64,000 nucleotides of DNA, taken from Escherichia coli (lineage in GTDB: Bacteria > Pseudomonadota > Gammaproteobacteria > Enterobacterales > Enterobacteriaceae). The notes under the pieces were generated by a model. It did not search any database and was not told the origin of the DNA. It worked only from the letters and a program-made list of their open reading frames with translations. The position numbers and the translations under genes are program-made. This document shows positions 1 to 51,960 of this stretch, piece after piece (the first letter of the stretch is position 1; each line of letters opens with the position of its first letter). The DNA lies in the NCBI RefSeq assembly GCF_017348835.2, contig NZ_CP071375.1; one strand, written 5' to 3'.

Positions 1-5366
<5,366 letters not shown>

Positions 5367-11578: not shown

Positions 11579-12577
11579 TTACGCGTCCGGGAACTCACGG
11601 ATAAAGCGTTCGACATCTTCAACCATATGGTCGTTGCCGACAAAGAACGAACGGCGCTGGTGCAGAGTTTCCGGGATGATATCCAGAATACGCTCTTTGC
11701 CATCGCTCGCTTTACCGCCCGCTTGTTCCGCCAGGAATGCCATCGGGTTGCACTCATAAAGCAAACGCAGTTTGCCGTCCGGGTGGCTGGCGGTGCTTGG
11801 GTAGAGATAAATACCGCCTTTCAGCAGGTTACGGTGGAAATCCGCGACCAGTGAACCGATATAACGTGAGGTATACGGGCGGTTGGTGGATTTATCTTCT
11901 TCCTGGCAGAATTTAATGTACTTCTTCACCCCGTTCGGAAACTTAATGTAGTTTCCTTCGTTGATGGAGTAGGTTTTGCCTTTCTCCGGGAAGCGCATCC
12001 GTTCCTGGCACAGGCAGAAAACGCCGAGCGAAGGATCGTAAGTAAAGGCGTGAACACCGCATCCGGTGGTGTAAACCAGCATGGTAGAGGAGCCGTATAC
12101 CACGTAACCTGCCGCAACCTGTTTGTTACCAGGCTGGAGGAAATCTTCTTCCGTTACCGGCGTGCCGACGGGCGTAACGCGGCGGTAGATGGAGAAAATG
12201 GTACCGACAGAGACGTTAACATCGATGTTGGACGAGCCATCCAGTGGGTCCATCAGCACCACGTATTTTGCATGTTCACAGCCTTCAAAGACGACAATCT
12301 CATCTTCTTCTTCAGAGGCAATGCCCGCAACGATATCGCGTGCTTTCAGTGCGGCTTTCAGTTTTTCATTAGCGAACAAGTCGAGTTTTTGCTGAACCTC
12401 GCCCTGCACGTTCTCAGCACCGCTGGCACCCAGGATATCAACCAGTCCTGCTTTGTTGATATCGCGATGGATAATCTTGGCGCCCAGTTTTATTGCCGAC
12501 AGCAAAGCAGTGAGCTCACCGGTAGCATGAGAAAACTCGTGCTGCTTTTCGACAATAAATTCACCTAACGTTTTCAT
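11579..12577 (-). CDS. fbp: Fructose-1,6-bisphosphatase class I
   Basis: Translation from the internal Met ([15 protein letters not shown]...) matches E. coli Fbp at 332 aa; the 393-aa track ORF carries a spurious N-terminal extension. Confidence 0.9.
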
Positions 12578-47097: not shown

Positions 47098-48117
47098 TCA
47101 GAAGTCGGCTTTCAGGACCACGCGGTAGCGCGCTTTACCATCGCGTACATGCTGGATGGCGTCGTTAATTTTCGACATCGGGAACAGTTCGGTGGTCGGC
47201 GCAACCTTGCTGCGGGCGGCAAAACGCATCAGCTTACGCAGCTCATAAGGCGTGCCGGTAGCAGAACCAGAGATGCTGCGGTCGCCCGCAATTAACGTAA
47301 AGGCCGGAACAGACAGCGGCGTGAGAACCGCACCGACCGTATGGAAATTACCGCCATAGGTCAGCGCCTCAAAATAAGGCTGCCAGTCGAGGCTGACGTT
47401 CACAGTATTGATAATGAGATCAAACTGCCCCGACAGGGCTTTCAGTGCCTGCGGATCGCGGCTATTCACCACTTTATCGGCACCCATCGCCAGTACTTCC
47501 TGCTCTTTCGCCGGATTAGAACTAAAGGCCGTCACCTCGCATCCCATTGCGTGCAGAAGTTTTATAGCGATATGCCCCAGCCCGCCAATACCAATTACCC
47601 CAACGCGGCTGGTAGCAGTGATATGGTGCATCAACAGTGGTTTAAAGACCGTGATACCGCCGCACAACAGCGGCCCGGTGGACTCGATATCAATATTTTC
47701 TGGCAGTGGAATCACCCATTGCCAGTCCGCACGCAACTTCTCGGCAAAGCCACCGCGATTCATAATCGTCGGCACCGCACCTTGCTCGCAGTTGATCTGA
47801 TTACCGCTAATACAGGCGTCGCAGTGACCACAGCTACGCGCCGTCCAGCCAATCCCGACACGCTGACCGACCTGCAAACCTTTATCCTGCGCGGCGCTCC
47901 CGAGTGCCACCACGCGCCCAATCACCTCATGCCCGGCAACCAGCGGATATTGTGAAAATCCCCATTCGTTATCGATCATCGACAGATCGGAATGACAAAT
48001 CCCGCAGTAATCCACCTGCACTTCAACATCTTGTGGCTTCAGCTCACCGGGATCGTACTCATAAACTTCCAGTTCGCCGCCCGCTTCTTTTGCGGCATAG
48101 CTTTTTATCATCGACAT
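47098..48117 (-). CDS. ahr: NADPH-dependent aldehyde reductase Ahr (YjgB), zinc-type alcohol dehydrogenase
   Basis: Internal Met start ([53 protein letters not shown]…) gives 339 aa with zinc-ADH motifs. Confidence 0.85.
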
Positions 48118-48312
48118 TTTTGGGTCCTTCTCTGGTGTTGTTTGGGAAGTGTAGAGCATGGCAGGGCGGGGTGCCTGGAGTGTGACAAAGGTTACATATC
48201 GCTGAGTGTAATGCTGAAAATTTCAGCACTTAGCGAGGTGGGTGCAAGCTGGCGCTTGCATGGTGGCGTGCGACAGGTATAATCCACAACGTTTTCCGCA
48301 TACCTCTTCAGT

Positions 48313-48397
48313 GCCGAAGTGGCGAAATCGGTAGACGCAGTTGATTCAAAATCAACCGTAGAAATACGTGCCGGTTCGAGTCCGGCCTTCGGCACCA
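48313..48397 (+). tRNA. leuX: tRNA-Leu (anticodon CAA)
   Basis: 85-nt sequence gccgaagtggcgaaatcggtagacgcagttgattcaaaatcaaccgtagaaatacgtgccggttcgagtccggccttcggcacca, with the CAA anticodon in the loop and an encoded CCA end. Confidence 0.95.
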
Positions 48398-48930
48398 AGT
48401 TACTAAATTCCTTACAATACAGTTAGTTAGACGATTAAATCTGTCTCTTTTGCCTGTAAGAAATGCTCTGTTATGTCCCTTGAAAAAGCCGCTGTGGTTG
48501 ATAGTGGTAATTGGGATGTTAACTCATAGCGGCGTGTCGTTCCAAGCGTCAAACACGTACTGACTCAACTTGAAAGCTATGACGTAGCCACCGTCTCTAA
48601 ACAATCCCAAAACTTTTAGTGCAGCGCATTTTAGCCCGATGCCCCCATTCTGTCGCCGTCGCGAGACGCCGCAGGGGATAAACAGGTTTATGGTGGTCAC
48701 GGTACTTGCAGACCATATGCAAGCTCTGCCAGCGGTTCGGCCTCGCTCCCCTTGGGTACATGGTCATCCTGATAAGCCTCACTAACTGACATAACCCTGA
48801 TGAAGTCGCAAGAGGCTCCGCTTGTTGTCTTACCACCAACGGGGCTTTATGGATTCTATTGCTTAATATATGATTGTATCAAACTTAGACTGCATAATTT
48901 AAACGAACATAACAATCAGGCAGGGGAAGA

Positions 48931-49755
48931 ATGATAAAGCCATTTTCTGTGAGGTATGGTCATGTTGACGTTAGAGAGCATGTCCAGCTGAATGATCTTA
49001 ATTCTGATACACGCATAGCATTGTGGAATTGCTTATATCTTTTCCTTTGGACTAACAATCGTCAAACTGCTACAGCAACAAAATGTGCGCAGTCTGTGTG
49101 GATATATTATCTAAATCAACCTGCGGATAATATTCCTCGTTATGAAAGTGGATACAAAAGTGATAAGACGTTGCTGACTGCTATCCGAGATTATATATAT
49201 GGGGAAGCATGGTATTTGGTATATGATTTAATTGAGTTCATCATTGAGAGAACTAATTCATATATTAATCTATCGAAGCATCTCAATTCCATCTTTAAAA
49301 AGCATGGCGTTGGTTATACCATAATAAATGGTTGTATTACTCCTATTTCAAATGATAACGAAATTGAAAGTGTTCAGAACGCAGTTGATAATGGCACTGA
49401 TTCATCGCGTAGCCATTTCGAAAGGGCGTTACAACTAATGACGGATAGAGAGCAGCCAGACTACAGAAACTCGATTAAAGAGTCTATCTCTGCAATTGAA
49501 TCTTTATGCAGGAAAATCACGGGCAATGATAAAGGAACCTTGGGGGCTTGTCTTAAAGCTATAGAGGAAAAAGGATATATACACTCTGCAATGAAAGGCG
49601 CTTTTAGTCAGCTCTATGGTTATACAAGTGATCAGGGTGGAATACGTCATGCGCTAACAGAAGAAGATGTAAATCCTACCTTAGCTGAAGCTAAATTTAT
49701 GTTAGTCACTTGCAGTGCGTTCAGTAATTATCTGTTGTCAAAAATAAGTGATTAA
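48931..49755 (+). CDS. Hypothetical protein, 274 aa, AT-rich, no motif recognised by eye
   Basis: Long uninterrupted ORF with a good Shine-Dalgarno (aggggaag) before the ATG; codon usage and base composition atypical of the flanking core genes; about 530 bp downstream of leuX. Confidence 0.6.
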   Translation: MIKPFSVRYGHVDVREHVQLNDLNSDTRIALWNCLYLFLWTNNRQTATATKCAQSVWIYYLNQPADNIPRYESGYKSDKTLLTAIRDYIYGEAWYLVYDLIEFIIERTNSYINLSKHLNSIFKKHGVGYTIINGCITPISNDNEIESVQNAVDNGTDSSRSHFERALQLMTDREQPDYRNSIKESISAIESLCRKITGNDKGTLGACLKAIEEKGYIHSAMKGAFSQLYGYTSDQGGIRHALTEEDVNPTLAEAKFMLVTCSAFSNYLLSKISD

Positions 49756-49803: not shown

Positions 49804-50376
49804 TTATTCACCAGACTCTAATCTTTTTTCTCTTTTCTCATCTCTCCTTTTTATTGCCAAATCGTGTTGCTCTTGCAGATACGTGCGTTCTTCGTTTCTA
49901 TCGCTTGAAGTATATACGTCTGCTTTTACTTTTTTAGCTCCTTGTGCAATAGGTTTCCAATCCTCTCTTATACCTTTAATTTGTTCTGCAATTTGCGTCA
50001 ATGGGCTTCTCGCTCCTAGATAACTTATTCCTTCAAATGTCGCCATGTCATACACATATTCATTTGTTTCTCTATCGTTTGATTTAGGTTTGCTTGCCCA
50101 GCTTATATTAATATTATAAATTTGATCTTTGATTTGTTCATACTTACAGAGATTGCTGGTAAGTGATTGCCCATTTTTTAACACGCTTACCTTACTAAAC
50201 GGAATCTCACTTTTTTCTCTATGCTCCGCATTTACTAGTGGAGGATCAAACACAACCTCAACATTATAGGCAGGTGCGTTCCCTGTATTAGCAATGTTAA
50301 TATCAAAGTAAAAAGCGGCCCAAGGGTTTGGCTCAAGTGTTACAACTATATGGGGTTGAGCTGATGCGTCAACCAT
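49804..50376 (-). CDS. Hypothetical protein, 190 aa from the first ATG (208 aa if the GTG at 50430 is used), charged and hydrophilic
   Basis: ORF convergent with 48931..49755. The GTG-extended N terminus runs into the IS911 terminal sequence, so the ATG at 50374-50376 is preferred. No motif recognised. Confidence 0.5.
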   Translation of the reverse strand: MVDASAQPHIVVTLEPNPWAAFYFDINIANTGNAPAYNVEVVFDPPLVNAEHREKSEIPFSKVSVLKNGQSLTSNLCKYEQIKDQIYNINISWASKPKSNDRETNEYVYDMATFEGISYLGARSPLTQIAEQIKGIREDWKPIAQGAKKVKADVYTSSDRNEERTYLQEQHDLAIKRRDEKREKRLESGE

Positions 50377-50476
50377 TCTTTTTGTCTCGTCTGCTCTGAA
50401 GTGGTGAAGTGGTTTACTGAATTTGGCCACCTGAACAGAGGTGATATGCTCACCTCAGAACAACACAGGTGCTCCA

Positions 50477-50739
50477 ATGAAAAAAAGAAATTTTAGCGCA
50501 GAGTTTAAACGCGAATCCGCTCAACTGGTTGTTGACCAGACATACACGGTGGCAGATGCCGCCAAAGCTATGGATGTTGGCCTTTCCACAATGACAAGAT
50601 GGGTCAAACAACTGCGTGATGAGCGTCAGGGCAAAACACCAAAAGCCTCTCCGATAACACCAGAACAAATCGAAATACGTAAGCTGAGGAAAAAGCTACA
50701 ACGCATTGAAATGGAGAATGAAATATTAAAAAAGGCTAC
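50477..50739 (+). pseudogene. insN: IS911 orfA (InsN), truncated by the IS30 insertion after about codon 87
   Basis: Translation follows IS911 OrfA up to …EILKKAT, then runs into the IS30 terminal repeat at 50740. Confidence 0.8.
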
Positions 50740-51960
50740 TGTAGATTCAATCTGTCAATGCAACACCCCTTTCAATTATCTCTTTCGGTGTTTTGAACTT
50801 CAGTGTCTTTCTCGGTCTGTTGTTTAGCTGAGCAGCAACCAGATCTAGTTCATGTTGAGTATATTGGGCAAGACATGTCTTTTTAGGAAAGTACTGCCGA
50901 ATTAGCCCATTTGTGTTCTCATTTGTTCCCCGCTGCCAAGGACTCTGAGGATCGCAGAAGTAAACTTTAACGCCGGTGCTGACAGTAAATTCTAGATGTC
51001 TGGCCAGTTCCATTCCTCTGTCCCATGTCAGTGATTTTCTGAGTTCTGACGGTAAACTCAGGAATTTGTCGGTAAGAGCCTGATTTACTGAGACAGAATC
51101 TTTGCCCCTGAGTCTAAGGATGATCGTATAACGTGATTTTCGGTCTACAAGTGTGGCTATATGAGAGTTTTTTGTACCTGAGACTAAATCGCCCTCCCAA
51201 TGCCCCAGAGAGCGTCTGTTATCGATATTTCGGGAACGTTCGTGAATTGGTGTTCCGTTCACTATGTTAATCGTACCTCTTTCGCCTTTGCGGGTATGAC
51301 GCCTGCCATGGCGAAGGCTATGCGACCGTCGCAGATGCTGTATATTCAGGTGGTGTAGCGCTTCACGGCTACGAAAGTACAGCGTTTTATAAATTGTCTC
51401 AGGTGATATTCGCAGCGTTTTTTGACGTGGTTTTGTTCGCCTTAACCATCCTGATATTTGCTCTGGAGACCATTTCATCTCCAGCTTTTCCAGAACAAGC
51501 TTTCGCAATGGTAAATTTTGATCCAGTAAGCACGGTTTTGGCCTTTTCGCCATTCTGTTGGCTCGGTTATTAGCATCAACAGCTTTGTAATAGCGTCTGC
51601 CCCGATTACGCTGAACTTCACGTGAGATCGTCGAAGGACTGCGATTCAGCGCAGTAGCTATCGCACGAATGCTCATTTTGGCTGACAAACCAGCTCGTAT
51701 CTCCTCGCGCTCAGACAGTGTCAGGTGAGCTACAGCCCGCTTATGCTCATGGGGTTTTATGCCGCCAGTATCCCTTAACATAGTGAAGATCGTTCCGGGT
51801 TTTGAACCCAGGATATTCGCTATTTCACTGAAGCCTGTTCCGTTCTTCCATAGTTCAAAAACAGAGGCTTTTTCCTCTGCTGTAAATGTTCGTCTCATTC
51901 AAAAAACCTCCGCAACCCCATGTTTTCACATAACTGTTGCGTTGACCAATTGAATCTACA
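50740..51960 (-). mobile_element. IS30, complete 1221-bp copy inserted into IS911 orfA with a 2-bp target duplication (AC)
   Basis: Terminal inverted repeats tgtagattcaat… at 50740 and …attgaatctaca at 51960; AC at 50738-50739 and 51961-51962; the IS911 sequence resumes at 51963. Confidence 0.9.
50747..51898 (-). CDS. insI: IS30 transposase (InsI), 383 aa
   Basis: [41 protein letters not shown]… matches the IS30 transposase. Confidence 0.9.

What the first reader, a model, noticed from the sequence alone, without database searches (positions are those of the whole stretch)
48398..48930. ORF-free spacer downstream of leuX with a GC-rich, self-complementary core: possible structured RNA or decayed integration module
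About 530 bp separate leuX from the first islet ORF. The only reading frame (80 codons, minus strand, 48597..48839) has no convincing start context. The central part (about 48640-48850) is visibly more GC-rich than its AT-rich surroundings and contains nested inverted repeats (for example tatggt…accata enclosing cttgc…gcaag). Where an integrase gene normally follows a tRNA, a conserved non-coding block is notable: it could be a regulatory or structured RNA associated with the downstream genes, or a relic of a P4-like element.
Basis: seen in the sequence. Interest (0 to 1): 0.5.

Follow-up and report, generated by a model that had tools for sequence, protein, structure and literature searches.

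The report
Conserved structured RNA-like block beside tRNA
The unannotated 533-bp gap after the leuX tRNA gene is the surviving tRNA-side end of a decayed mobile element, and about 375 nt of it looks like a conserved folded RNA that no database lists and that sits just upstream of anti-phage defence genes in many gut bacteria.

Summary
48398-48930 has no conserved ORF, is unannotated in RefSeq, and has a GC-richer centre. Its self-complementarity alone is not unusual (MFE z = +0.45), and the quoted repeats are interleaved, not nested.

Comparison shows what it is. The stretch from the leuX 3' end to about 48862 belongs to a family found directly downstream of, and co-oriented with, tRNA-Leu(CAA), tRNA-Gly(CCC), tRNA-Thr(CGT) and tRNA-Ala(GGC) genes. 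It occurs in at least 11 genera of Enterobacterales and on plasmids. Full-length copies occur in 620 (leuX type), 211 (glyU type) and 22 (thrW type) of 5426 complete E. coli genomes.

The spacer is 96-98% identical between E. coli and Kosakonia or Kluyvera, while the neighbouring ahr gene is only 78% identical.

Covariation supports several helices. About 92% of cells pair, against 28-40% when partners are slid, and 13 of 25 pairs change on both sides. G-U outnumbers A-C 108 to 22, which points to an RNA on the tRNA strand. A terminator-like 3' hairpin competes with a covarying long-range helix.

No Rfam or Pfam match was found, and there is no integrase remnant. In intact relatives the block is the integrase-distal end of a roughly 14-kb element bounded by tRNA repeats, next to a defence-gene hotspot. 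The element is not P4-like. Transcription is untested.

The parts
48313..48397 (+). leuX, tRNA-Leu(CAA). Its 3' end is the att core to which the element family is joined.
   Evidence: ARAGORN and Rfam tRNA at 59.4 bits. In intact relatives the last 20-30 nt of the tRNA are repeated at the far end of the element.
48398..48487 (+). tRNA-proximal arm, probably the P' arm of the former attP. It is AT-rich and holds the hairpin AUUCCUUACA/UGUAAGAAAU (48407-48416 with 48455-48464). The aligned position carries an IHF-like motif in the paralogues.
   Evidence: It is alignable across tRNA types. The inverted repeat is I2. WATCAANNNNTTR is perfect in L010, L015, L023 and L030 and has one mismatch in eight other loci, but no match at one mismatch or fewer in the window. 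An 11-nt motif, CAGTTACCTAT, is shared between the two att arms of L041. The role at DNA level is inferred, not tested.
48488..48556 (+). 5' structured domain. It comprises the helix GCCGCUG (48488-48494) with UAGCGGC (48527-48533), an inner helix, and the helix GUGU (48534-48537) with ACAC (48553-48556).
   Evidence: On alignment A6, 19 pairs are 93.1% paired, against 27-48% when slid. Six pairs change on both sides, and 0 of 500 shuffles reach the observed score.
48557..48641 (+). Conserved linker (CAACUUGAA...GUCUCUAAA...GCGCAUUUUAGCCCGAUG). Its structure is not resolved.
   Evidence: Conserved columns.
48642..48677 (+). P1, a hairpin of variable length and sequence at a fixed position. In the window it is a long version closed by a GCGA tetraloop.
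   Evidence: All 5 scored pairs change on both sides among homologues (helix 1). The sequences are shown.
48691..48697 (+). Segment A (UGGUGGU). It is the 5' strand of the long-range helix and can also pair with segment B.
   Evidence: A with D is 7 bp and 97.9% paired, with GC to AU changes at two positions in 4 and 12-14 sequences. A with B covaries at column 97 with column 130.
48705..48723 (+). P3 hairpin, CUUGCA/UGCAAG.
   Evidence: 95.5% paired. Three of 6 pairs change on both sides (CUUGC/GCAAG, CCUGC/GCAGG, CCUAC/GUAGG, CCGGU/AUCCGG).
48728..48734 (+). Segment B (GCCAGCG), the alternative partner of segment A.
   Evidence: helix 2: 94.4% paired. Columns 97 and 130 are GC in 13 sequences and AU in 14.
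48739..48765 (+). P4, GGCC with GGUC (48739-42 and 48762-65), plus an inner CCC with GGG.
   Evidence: 98.1% paired. Three of 4 pairs change on both sides (helix 4).
48768..48803 (+). Invariant CCUGAUAAG, then CUGA, 4-7 nt, and CUGAUGA. This purine-rich arrangement resembles a k-turn or k-loop, but the resemblance is recalled from memory and is only a lead.
   Evidence: Invariant columns. CCUGAUAAG served as the search anchor. No structural test was possible.
48775..48817 (+). P5, AGCCUC (48775-80) with GAGGCU (48812-17). Most paralogues have AG(G)UGUG with UACGCU instead.
   Evidence: I23 and my reading. The MAFFT columns are offset, so this helix was not scored formally.
48815..48852 (+). 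Terminator-like hairpin (48815-48845) followed by UUUAUGG. Its 3' half contains segment D (ACCACCA, 48832-48838).
   Evidence: Eleven pairs are 98.3% paired with no change on both sides. The C-to-U change at column 246 keeps both G-U in this hairpin and A-U in helix A:D. The consensus terminator scan did not call it, because it has only 4 T in 8. Forced folds of the two conformers differ by 0-6 kcal/mol in most homologues and by up to about 9 in a few.
48846..48862 (.). Break point of homology. Copies of the leuX type diverge from one another either right after GGGGC (48845) or after CUAUUGC (48862). Beyond it lies variable cargo.
48597..48839 (-). It is a chance open frame.
   Evidence: TTG start, no Pfam hit at E<=1, and not open in most paralogues.
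48931..49755 (+). First cargo gene, an AbiJ-NTD4 protein that matches PADLOC candidate defence system PDC-S32.
   Evidence: Pfam AbiJ_NTD4 at 4e-27, PADLOC PDC-S32 at 6e-104, and the RefSeq annotation.

Best explanation
The stretch 48398 to about 48862 is the tRNA-side, integrase-distal end of a decayed integrative element. The family consists of elements of about 14 kb that insert into the 3' ends of tRNA genes.

The first 90 nt or so are most likely the former att arm. The remaining roughly 375 nt (48488-48852) encode a structured RNA on the same strand as the tRNA. This RNA has several covarying helices. It ends in an intrinsic-terminator-like hairpin whose 3' half can instead pair with an upstream segment, giving two nearly isoenergetic conformers.

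My inferred mechanism is as follows. The block is transcribed as a long trailer of the strong tRNA promoter, or from a weak promoter in the att arm. It then acts in cis as an insulator or conditional terminator. This gate stands between the tRNA promoter and the co-oriented genes behind it, which are first a hotspot of defence or toxin genes and then the element's own Rep-like, tape-measure-like and head-like genes.

Shown here: homology, position, orientation, covariation, strand bias, the competing helices, and membership of the element. Inferred: transcription, the promoter used, and the gating function.
For: Family and position:
- Paralogues at 75-80% identity lie downstream of glyU and thrW, and on plasmids.
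- A motif scan found 21 genome loci in at least 11 genera of Enterobacterales, plus 6 IMG/VR loci.
- In every locus where a complete tRNA gene was found within 500 nt upstream (16 genome loci, 4 E. coli records, one IMG/VR contig and the window), the block lies 335-460 nt downstream of it and is co-oriented.
- Displaced copies keep a fragment of the tRNA 3' end.

Intact elements:
- L040 has a 30-nt perfect repeat of the thrW 3' end. L041 has a repeat of the glyU 3' end that is exact over at least 20 nt.
- In both, a tyrosine integrase sits at the far end and the block sits next to the tRNA.
- The family shares head-like, tape-measure-like and Rep-like genes.

Structure:
- A5 alignment: 25 pairs are 91.8% paired against 28-40% when slid. 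The covariation score is 0.353 against at most 0.105, and 0 of 500 shuffles reach it.
- A6 alignment: 93.1% paired against 27-48%.
- G-U counts 108 cells against 22 for A-C.

Possible switch:
- Segment A pairs with B or with D, and both pairings covary with column 97.
- C246U is tolerated in both conformers.
- The conformer energies differ by 0-6 kcal/mol in most homologues, up to about 9 in a few.

Constraint:
- The spacer is 96-98% identical across genera where ahr is 78% identical.
- It is kept intact in 620 E. coli genomes although the element is dead.

Context:
- Genes behind the block are defence or conflict genes, and the first gene is co-oriented in about 15 of 22 contexts.
- No strong terminator follows leuX before 48815. 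In K-12 a different trailer terminates about 40 nt after CCA (PMC2811032).
Against: - There is no transcript evidence of any kind.
- The thermodynamic stability is ordinary (z = +0.45).
- The 3' hairpin has a weak U-tract and was not called by the terminator scan. It shows no change on both sides.
- The three-way covariation of columns 97, 130 and 242 involves only two states and could partly reflect shared ancestry.
- A plain insulator would not need 375 nt of conserved sequence.
- Cargo probably has its own promoter. A promoter-like site lies between the block and the RAZR homologue in L040. A Klebsiella variicola RAZR homologue, whose genomic context I did not check, works with only 200 bp of native upstream DNA (PMC13017515, methods). 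A role as a leader for cargo expression is therefore doubtful.
- In 7 of 22 contexts the first gene points the other way.
- No positionally conserved sigma-70 promoter was found.
Confidence: 0.4

Rival explanations
1. The block is a stand-alone, trans-acting structured ncRNA of the element. It is either cut out of the tRNA trailer or made from its own promoter. It binds a protein or another RNA, for example as an immunity or regulatory RNA of a satellite-like element or as an RNA aimed at a helper phage. The 3' hairpin would then simply be its terminator.
For: - The architecture is complex and conserved, with a long-range helix and invariant purine-rich loops.
- The block is retained whatever gene follows it, and whatever that gene's orientation.
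- A promoter-like CTTACA-18-TAAAAT site occurs just after the tRNA in several leuX-type copies.
- Conservation far exceeds that of the flanking gene.
Against: - No promoter is conserved across tRNA types.
- No target was found: complementarity to the integrase 5' region is no better than for shuffled sequence.
- The terminator is poor by the standards of a typical sRNA.
- There are no expression data.
Confidence: 0.3
2. The block works only as DNA. It would be an extended attP arm carrying integrase, IHF and excisionase sites, or a packaging or replication site of the element. The apparent helices would then be by-products.
For: - It abuts the att core, and in the circular form it would lie next to the integrase promoter region.
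- An IHF-like motif occurs 11-53 nt after the tRNA end in many copies.
- An 11-nt motif is shared by both att arms of L041.
- Satellites often place cos or pac sites at the integrase-distal end (general knowledge).
Against: - Compensatory changes occur in at least 5 helices spread over 375 nt, with a 5:1 excess of G-U over A-C. Double-stranded protein-binding sites would not produce that bias.
- The block is kept at 96-100% identity in hundreds of genomes that have lost the integrase and the rest of the element.
- It has no similarity to any phage record, so it is not a borrowed cos site.
- Iterons lie elsewhere in the glyU element.
Confidence: 0.12
3. The block is a riboswitch-like or helper-sensing antiterminator. 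It would let the tRNA promoter drive the whole co-oriented element (hotspot, Rep-like, tape-measure-like and head-like genes) when a signal flips the 3' hairpin.
For: - Terminator and anti-terminator helices are mutually exclusive, and both are compatible with the observed substitutions.
- Nearly all genes of the intact elements are co-oriented with the tRNA.
- There is a precedent: phage P4 immunity acts through RNA-RNA pairing that terminates leader transcripts (general knowledge).
Against: - No ligand or trigger is known.
- The terminator is weak.
- The block persists in remnants that have nothing left to induce.
- Cargo has its own promoter in at least one case (PMC13017515).
Confidence: 0.12
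4. The block is a decayed protein-coding gene, an integrase or another gene, or else neutral junk whose repeats arose by chance.
For: - An 80-codon open frame exists in the window.
- The MFE is no better than that of shuffled sequence.
Against: - The frame is not conserved, and 1-2 nt indels separate the homologues.
- No Pfam hit was found at E<=1.
- The block is 96-98% identical across genera against 78% for ahr.
- Covariation is present.
Confidence: 0.02

Closest known systems
tRNA-operon trailer RNAs: RtT RNA (Rfam RF00391, tyrT operon) and 3'ETS-leuZ
   Same: Both are non-coding RNAs encoded directly downstream of, and co-oriented with, a tRNA gene. They are plausibly released from the tRNA primary transcript.
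   Different: There is no sequence or structure match. RtT was found elsewhere in L010 but never on the block. The block is much longer (375-465 nt), it belongs to a mobile element rather than the core genome, and co-transcription is unproven.
Phage P4 immunity leader (CI RNA with seqA/seqC pairing that causes premature termination)
   Same: Both involve a satellite-type element at an E. coli tRNA gene with a non-coding leader. In both, alternative RNA pairings decide whether transcription terminates before the element's replication genes.
   Different: The element here is not P4-like: none of the products was called a primase, Sid, Delta or Psu, and the integrase is at the opposite end. No homology was detected. 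In P4 the leader follows its own promoter, not a tRNA. This comparison rests on recalled knowledge and was not tested.
Large structured ncRNAs of prophages that often neighbour tRNA genes (GOLLD, ROOL)
   Same: All are long, multi-helix ncRNA candidates carried by phage-like elements and adjacent to tRNAs, with unknown function.
   Different: They have different hosts (Firmicutes and others), are larger (580-800 nt) and are unrelated in sequence. cmscan gave no hit.
attL or attP arms of tyrosine-integrase elements (lambda, P4, HP1 types)
   Same: The region starts at the att core in the tRNA 3' end. Several copies have an IHF-like site and a shared arm motif.
   Different: Arms usually span 100-200 bp and are not expected to show strand-biased compensatory changes. 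Here the conserved region runs about 465 nt and shows covariation typical of RNA.
Defence-gene hotspots of P2 phages and P4 satellites
   Same: Both are fixed sites in a small integrative element, bounded by conserved sequence, where unrelated single-gene defence systems replace one another. Here these are PDC-S32, RAZR/PD-T7-4, a type IV restriction enzyme and PAAR or Tlde1 toxins.
   Different: The element family is different, and here the upstream boundary of the hotspot is a structured non-coding block next to the tRNA.

Membership tests
   No integrase-like ORF or Pfam match occurs in any frame of 48398-48930. The open frames are not conserved. In intact relatives the integrase lies about 13 kb away at the other end.
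   L040, L041 and L036 carry Rep-initiator-like (DUF6945), tape-measure-like, major-head-like and GNAT genes. The RefSeq annotation of L040 and L041, PHROGs on ten L040 proteins and Pfam on ten L036 proteins called none of the products a primase, Sid, Delta or Psu.
End of a tyrosine-integrase integrative element (attL side) | The region starts at the tRNA 3' end, and the same tRNA segment is repeated at the other end next to an integrase | tested here: met
   This is met in the relatives. L040 has a 30-nt perfect repeat and L041 has a repeat that is exact over at least 20 nt, and each has an integrase 90-120 nt from attR. It is not met in the window itself, which has no second copy of the leuX 3' end. 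The window copy is therefore a truncated remnant.
End of a tyrosine-integrase integrative element (attL side) | Arm-type integrase sites and an IHF site in the arm | tested here: inconclusive
   The IHF consensus is perfect in 4 loci and has one mismatch in 8 more, but the window has no match at one mismatch or fewer. One shared 11-mer occurs between the arms of L041. Binding was not tested.
Any described RNA family (Rfam 15) | A covariance-model match | tested here: not met
   cmscan at E<=10 on window 47900-49500 found only the tRNA. At E<=1 on L040, L041 and L010 nothing fell on the block.
Structured non-coding RNA (generic) | Base pairs kept through compensatory substitutions, beyond the controls | tested here: met
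   Pairing is 92-93%, against 27-48% when partners are slid. Thirteen and six pairs change on both sides, and 0 of 500 shuffles reach the observed covariation score.
Structured non-coding RNA (generic) | The region is transcribed | not testable with these tools
   No expression data are available. Searching papers for strings from the sequence found nothing.
Intrinsic (Rho-independent) terminator | A GC-rich hairpin followed directly by a U-tract | tested here: inconclusive
   The hairpin 48815-48845 has 11 pairs and is 98% conserved as paired. The tail is UUUAUGG, with 4 T in 8, so the scan did not report it.
Conditional terminator (attenuator or riboswitch type) | Mutually exclusive terminator and anti-terminator helices, both conserved | tested here: met
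   Helix A:D (48691-97 with 48832-38) overlaps the 3' arm of the hairpin. Both are above 97% paired. C246U fits both conformers, and their energies lie within 0-6 kcal/mol in most homologues, up to about 9 in a few.
Conditional terminator (attenuator or riboswitch type) | A sensed signal, and a regulated gene downstream on the same strand | tested here: inconclusive
   The first gene is co-oriented in about 15 of 22 contexts. However, a promoter-like site lies between the block and the cargo in L040. No ligand or trigger is known.
tRNA trailer RNAs (RtT type) | Homology to RtT, or repeats of tRNA-like units | tested here: not met
   There is no RF00391 hit on the block, although the model does find RtT elsewhere in L010.
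Protein-coding gene | A conserved open reading frame with a codon-like substitution pattern | tested here: not met
   

The most novel reading that the evidence does not exclude
The block is a new class of large riboregulator built into the end of a so far undescribed family of integrative elements of about 14 kb that carry a head-protein-like gene. When the element inserts into a tRNA gene, the strong tRNA promoter comes to lie in front of this RNA. The RNA's terminator/anti-terminator switch would then decide whether that promoter stays insulated or drives the defence hotspot and the element's replication and structural genes. It could, for example, flip on helper-phage infection or on a tRNA-related stress signal.
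Probability: 0.12. Interest if true: 0.85.

Novelty: new member of a known kind. Interest (0 to 1): 0.62.

Why it matters
- About one in seven complete E. coli genomes carries this block. They include much-used strains (E. coli C, the type strain ATCC 11775 and Nissle 1917) and O26 and O103 Shiga-toxin lineages. Many other Enterobacterales carry it too, yet it is unannotated and absent from Rfam.
- It marks the upstream boundary of a recurring hotspot for single-gene anti-phage systems, including the experimentally studied RAZR/PD-T7-4. It could therefore serve as a search handle for new defence genes and for a family of small phage-like elements that has no relatives among deposited phage genomes.
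- If the RNA proves to be transcribed from the tRNA promoter and to switch termination, it would show how a mobile element copes with, or exploits, landing behind one of the strongest promoters in the cell.

Tried and rejected
- Rfam scans of the window region and of three paralogous loci found nothing on the block.
- BLAST of the block against 50,697 phage records gave no match, so it is not a known cos or pac site.
- Pfam on all spacer ORFs gave no match, so a decayed integrase is rejected.
- A search for an attR repeat of the leuX 3' end in the window found none. None was found in the short flanks of 18 other loci either.
- I looked for a repeat linking the block to the small serine recombinases that recur downstream. 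Nothing consistent emerged, and the recombinases are only 26-43% identical to one another.
- A hammerhead or other ribozyme reading of CUGAUGA was rejected, because Rfam has those models and gave no hit.
- A T-box-like reading, in which UGGUG pairs with the tRNA 3' CACCA, was rejected. Segment A does not change with the tRNA type, and glyU ends in CUCCA.
- A promoter conserved in position across all types was not found.
- Antisense pairing of the block with the integrase 5' region is no better than for shuffled sequence.
- Thermodynamic stability is no better than for shuffled sequence.
- Literature searches by gene names and by strings from the sequence found no description of the block.
- A paper on 'ancient mobile genomic islands' (PMC6177240) proved unrelated.
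- tblastn of the element's head protein against phage records gave no match. A peptide-pattern search in IMG/VR found only two close relatives.
Full report
**What is in the window.** leuX (tRNA-Leu CAA) lies at 48313-48397 on the + strand. The next credible gene starts at 48931 and encodes an AbiJ-NTD4 protein. RefSeq annotates nothing in the 533 bp between them in genomes that carry the identical sequence, such as E. coli ATCC 11775 and E. coli C. The centre of the gap is GC-richer than its flanks, at 0.53-0.61 against 0.32-0.46. The 80-codon minus-strand frame exists, with a TTG start. It has no Pfam match and is interrupted in most related copies.

As a single sequence the region folds no better than shuffled versions, with z = +0.45 on the + strand and +0.35 on the - strand.

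**Conservation.**
- The 533 bp are present at 95% identity or more in 620 of 5426 complete E. coli genomes.
- A more sensitive search found copies at 70-80% identity at other places: downstream of tRNA-Gly (glyU), downstream of tRNA-Thr (thrW), at the far side of a P4-like element, and on plasmids of many genera.
- A motif built from invariant positions recovered 21 loci from one-genome-per-species collections. The genera were Pantoea, Tatumella, Erwinia, Kluyvera, Kosakonia, Trabulsiella, Cedecea, Klebsiella, Citrobacter, Enterobacter and Pseudenterobacter. It also recovered 6 IMG/VR contigs.
- In every locus where a complete tRNA gene was found within 500 nt upstream (16 genome loci, 4 E. 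coli records, one IMG/VR contig and the window), the block lies 335-460 nt downstream of that gene and on the same strand. The tRNAs are Leu(CAA), Gly(CCC), Thr(CGT) and Ala(GGC).
- The whole interval from the tRNA end to the block can be aligned across tRNA types.
- Copies that lack a tRNA gene, in Tatumella, Erwinia and two Enterobacter plasmids, still carry a fragment of the tRNA 3' end in front. The unit therefore begins at an att core.
- Full-length glyU-type and thrW-type copies occur in 211 and 22 E. coli genomes.
- The leuX-type spacer is 96-98% identical between E. coli and Kosakonia, Trabulsiella, Enterobacter and Kluyvera, whereas the adjacent ahr gene is only 78% identical. This means horizontal spread, strong constraint, or both.
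- The window holds a single copy, at 48608-48865 by nhmmer.

**What it belongs to.** Two E. coli genomes show the intact context.
- In strain LWY24, thrW is followed by the block and then a DUF4145 gene. Next come a DUF6945 protein resembling a replication initiator, a 715-aa protein resembling a tape measure, a major-head-like protein and a GNAT protein. A 401-aa tyrosine integrase sits at the far end. The last 30 nt of thrW are repeated perfectly 118 nt from the integrase start, giving an element of 13.6 kb.
- In strain 504211 the glyU copy has the same layout over 14 kb, with a repeat of the tRNA 3' end that is exact over at least 20 nt.
- Related head-like, tape-measure-like and Rep-like genes occur behind the block in an IMG/VR contig, in Kosakonia, and in another E. 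coli.

The block is therefore the integrase-distal, tRNA-proximal end of a family of small phage-like integrative elements. In the excised circle it would sit beside the att core, facing away from the integrase gene. These elements are not P4-like. Their head-like protein has no tblastn match among 50,697 phage records. In the window only the end and some cargo survive. IS3 and IS30 copies follow, and no second copy of the leuX 3' end exists. When a P4-like element later inserts into the same tRNA, the block is pushed to that element's far side (L004, L034).

**Evidence for an RNA structure.**
- On 27 distinct sequences of the 3' two-thirds (alignment A5), five helices with 25 pairs are 91.8% paired, against 28-40% when the partners are slid by 1-3 columns. 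Thirteen pairs change on both sides. The covariation score is 0.353 against at most 0.105, and none of 500 shuffles reaches it.
- The helices in window coordinates are:
  - a hairpin of variable sequence and length at 48642-48677;
  - CUUGCA/UGCAAG at 48705-48723;
  - GGCC/GGUC at 48739-48765;
  - a long-range helix, UGGUGGU 48691-48697 with ACCACCA 48832-48838, with GC-to-AU exchanges at two positions.
- A further helix, AGCCUC/GAGGCU (48775-80 with 48812-17), is replaced by AG(G)UGUG/UACGCU in most paralogues. I could not score it because the alignment columns are offset.
- The 5' part also covaries. GCCGCUG 48488-94 pairs with UAGCGGC 48527-33, and GUGU 48534-37 pairs with ACAC 48553-56. 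There, 93.1% of cells pair against 27-48% when slid.
- Across all scored helices G-U occurs in 108 cells and A-C in 22. This fits an RNA read from the + strand, the strand of the tRNA.
- No Rfam family matches the block in four different versions.

**A possible switch.**
- The region ends in an 11-pair hairpin (48815-48845) followed by UUUAUGG. The hairpin is 98% conserved as paired but shows no change on both sides, and its U-tract is too weak for the consensus scan.
- Its 3' arm overlaps the ACCACCA strand of the long-range helix, so the two cannot form together.
- The upstream strand UGGUGGU can also pair with GCCAGCG at 48728-34. Column 97 covaries with both partners.
- The C-to-U change seen in four homologues gives A-U in the long-range helix and G-U in the hairpin, so it is tolerated by both.
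- Forcing either conformer costs only 0-6 kcal/mol relative to the other in most homologues and up to about 9 in a few, and each is the minimum in some of them.
- This is the anatomy of a conditional terminator. The covariation involves few states, however, and may partly reflect shared ancestry.

**What follows the block.** Homology between copies stops sharply at 48845-48862, and different genes follow.
- In the window the next gene is the PADLOC candidate defence system PDC-S32.
- In LWY24 it is a homologue of PD-T7-4, now called RAZR, an experimentally studied anti-phage RNase (PMC13017515).
- On an IncX5 plasmid it is a type IV restriction enzyme.
- Elsewhere the genes include PAAR and Tlde1 toxins, DUF3800, a KAP NTPase and RelBE.
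- The first gene is co-oriented with the block in about 15 of 22 distinct contexts, and in several of these it starts 70-90 nt after the hairpin.

The block thus marks the upstream edge of a hotspot for conflict genes.

**Mechanism.** I commit to the following, at about 40% confidence. The block is transcribed with or just behind the tRNA. It then acts in cis as an insulator or gate between the strong tRNA promoter and the co-oriented toxic defence genes and element genes.
- In favour: the fixed position and orientation, the absence of a good terminator between leuX and 48815, the terminal hairpin, the competing helices, and survival of the block in hundreds of genomes in which the rest of the element is gone.
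- Against: there are no expression data, the U-tract is weak, and the cargo appears to have its own promoter. The last point rests on a promoter-like site between the block and the RAZR homologue and on a Klebsiella variicola RAZR homologue, whose genomic context I did not check, that works with 200 bp of native upstream DNA (PMC13017515). In addition, 375 nt of conserved structure is far more than simple termination needs.
- A trans-acting RNA of the element is nearly as likely, at about 30%.
- A DNA-only role as an att arm, packaging site or origin fits the first 90 nt or so but not the strand-biased compensatory changes, and not the block's retention after loss of the integrase (about 12%).
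- A decayed gene or neutral DNA is excluded for practical purposes.

**Comparison with known systems.** By position the block resembles tRNA-trailer RNAs (RtT, 3'ETS-leuZ). By logic it resembles the P4 immunity leader. By size and neighbourhood it resembles GOLLD and ROOL. It is not a member of any of them, because no homology was found and the carrier element differs. For leuX in K-12, a different trailer with a 7-bp terminator ends the transcript about 40 nt after CCA (PMC2811032). The 3' flank of this tRNA is therefore set by whichever element sits there.

**Verdict.** It is a widespread, unannotated, structured non-coding module at the tRNA-side end of an apparently undescribed family of integrative elements, placed directly upstream of a defence-gene hotspot. 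Its function, and even its transcription, remain to be shown.

Noticed in passing
L040 11872-25479 (E. coli LWY24, thrW); L041 300-14310 (E. coli 504211, glyU); L036; L042: A family of integrative elements of 13.6-14 kb, bounded by tRNA 3'-end repeats. They carry a DUF6945 protein resembling a replication initiator, a 630-730 aa protein resembling a tape measure, a major-head-like protein, and a tyrosine integrase at the far end. No gene was called a terminase or a portal in RefSeq or in the proteins I scanned. The head-like protein has no tblastn match among 50,697 phage records. This may be an undescribed kind of phage satellite.
   Followed up: partly
L040 25440-25480 (attL) versus 11860-11901 (attR): With the thrW-type element inserted, the intact tRNA-Thr gene reads ...TATCGGCA-CTC and so lacks an encoded CCA. 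The displaced fragment at attR keeps ...GGCACCA. The tRNA would then depend on CCA addition after transcription.
   Followed up: partly
L007 5543-6190; L033 5729-6280; L013, L016, L018 and L021 (ORF lists): Small serine recombinases of the resolvase/invertase type, 183-221 aa, recur 1-3 kb behind the block in six loci. They occur in either orientation and are only 26-43% identical to each other. No associated repeat was found.
   Followed up: partly
window 48931-49755; L040 24219-24854; L007 4635-5366: The genes just behind the block are single-gene anti-phage systems. The window gene matches PADLOC PDC-S32 at 6e-104. The LWY24 gene matches PD-T7-4 (RAZR) at 6e-102. The plasmid HNH protein matches type IV restriction enzymes.
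   Followed up: yes
L005 2980-3040 plus 4989-5161; L032 1980-2040 plus 3989-4161 (pSC138 and related plasmids): On many resistance plasmids the block is split by an ISSen3 (IS21-family) insertion and is followed by relBE on the opposite strand. The same 177-nt piece is identical in plasmids of Citrobacter, Serratia, Morganella, Providencia, Klebsiella and E. coli.
   Followed up: partly
L033 6789-6870: Four tandem 22-bp repeats (GGTAGGTCACTGTGAGCTAGGG) lie inside the glyU element and look like iterons of a replication origin.
   Followed up: no
L019 (contig labelled Collinsella sp. MAG); L017 (Rappaport israeli): These contigs carry copies of the block identical to the E. coli or plasmid versions. 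L019 also carries leuX. This probably reflects contamination or mis-binning in those assemblies.
   Followed up: no
window 49804-51898: Behind the defence gene lie a 208-aa ORF with no family match (a longer homologue sits next to a serine recombinase in Kosakonia, L016), then an IS3-family fragment interrupted by an intact IS30. This is probably where the rest of the element was lost.
   Followed up: partly
window 48846-48866: A mini-ORF starts at the conserved AUG just after the hairpin (AUG GAU UCU AUU GCU UAA in the window, and MASIV-stop in many copies). GGGG lies 4 nt upstream. In some paralogues it runs in frame into the annotated downstream ORF. Its significance is unknown.
   Followed up: no
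window 48768-48773 and 48796-48801 versus 48915-48920: The two conserved CCUGAU motifs of the block are complementary to AUCAGG, which lies just upstream of the Shine-Dalgarno sequence of the defence gene. With only 6 nt this may well be chance.
   Followed up: no
L010 8253-8535: Two RtT RNA copies (Rfam RF00391) lie downstream of a tRNA-Val/Lys cluster in Pantoea stewartii. They are an unrelated example of RNA encoded in a tRNA operon trailer.
   Followed up: no
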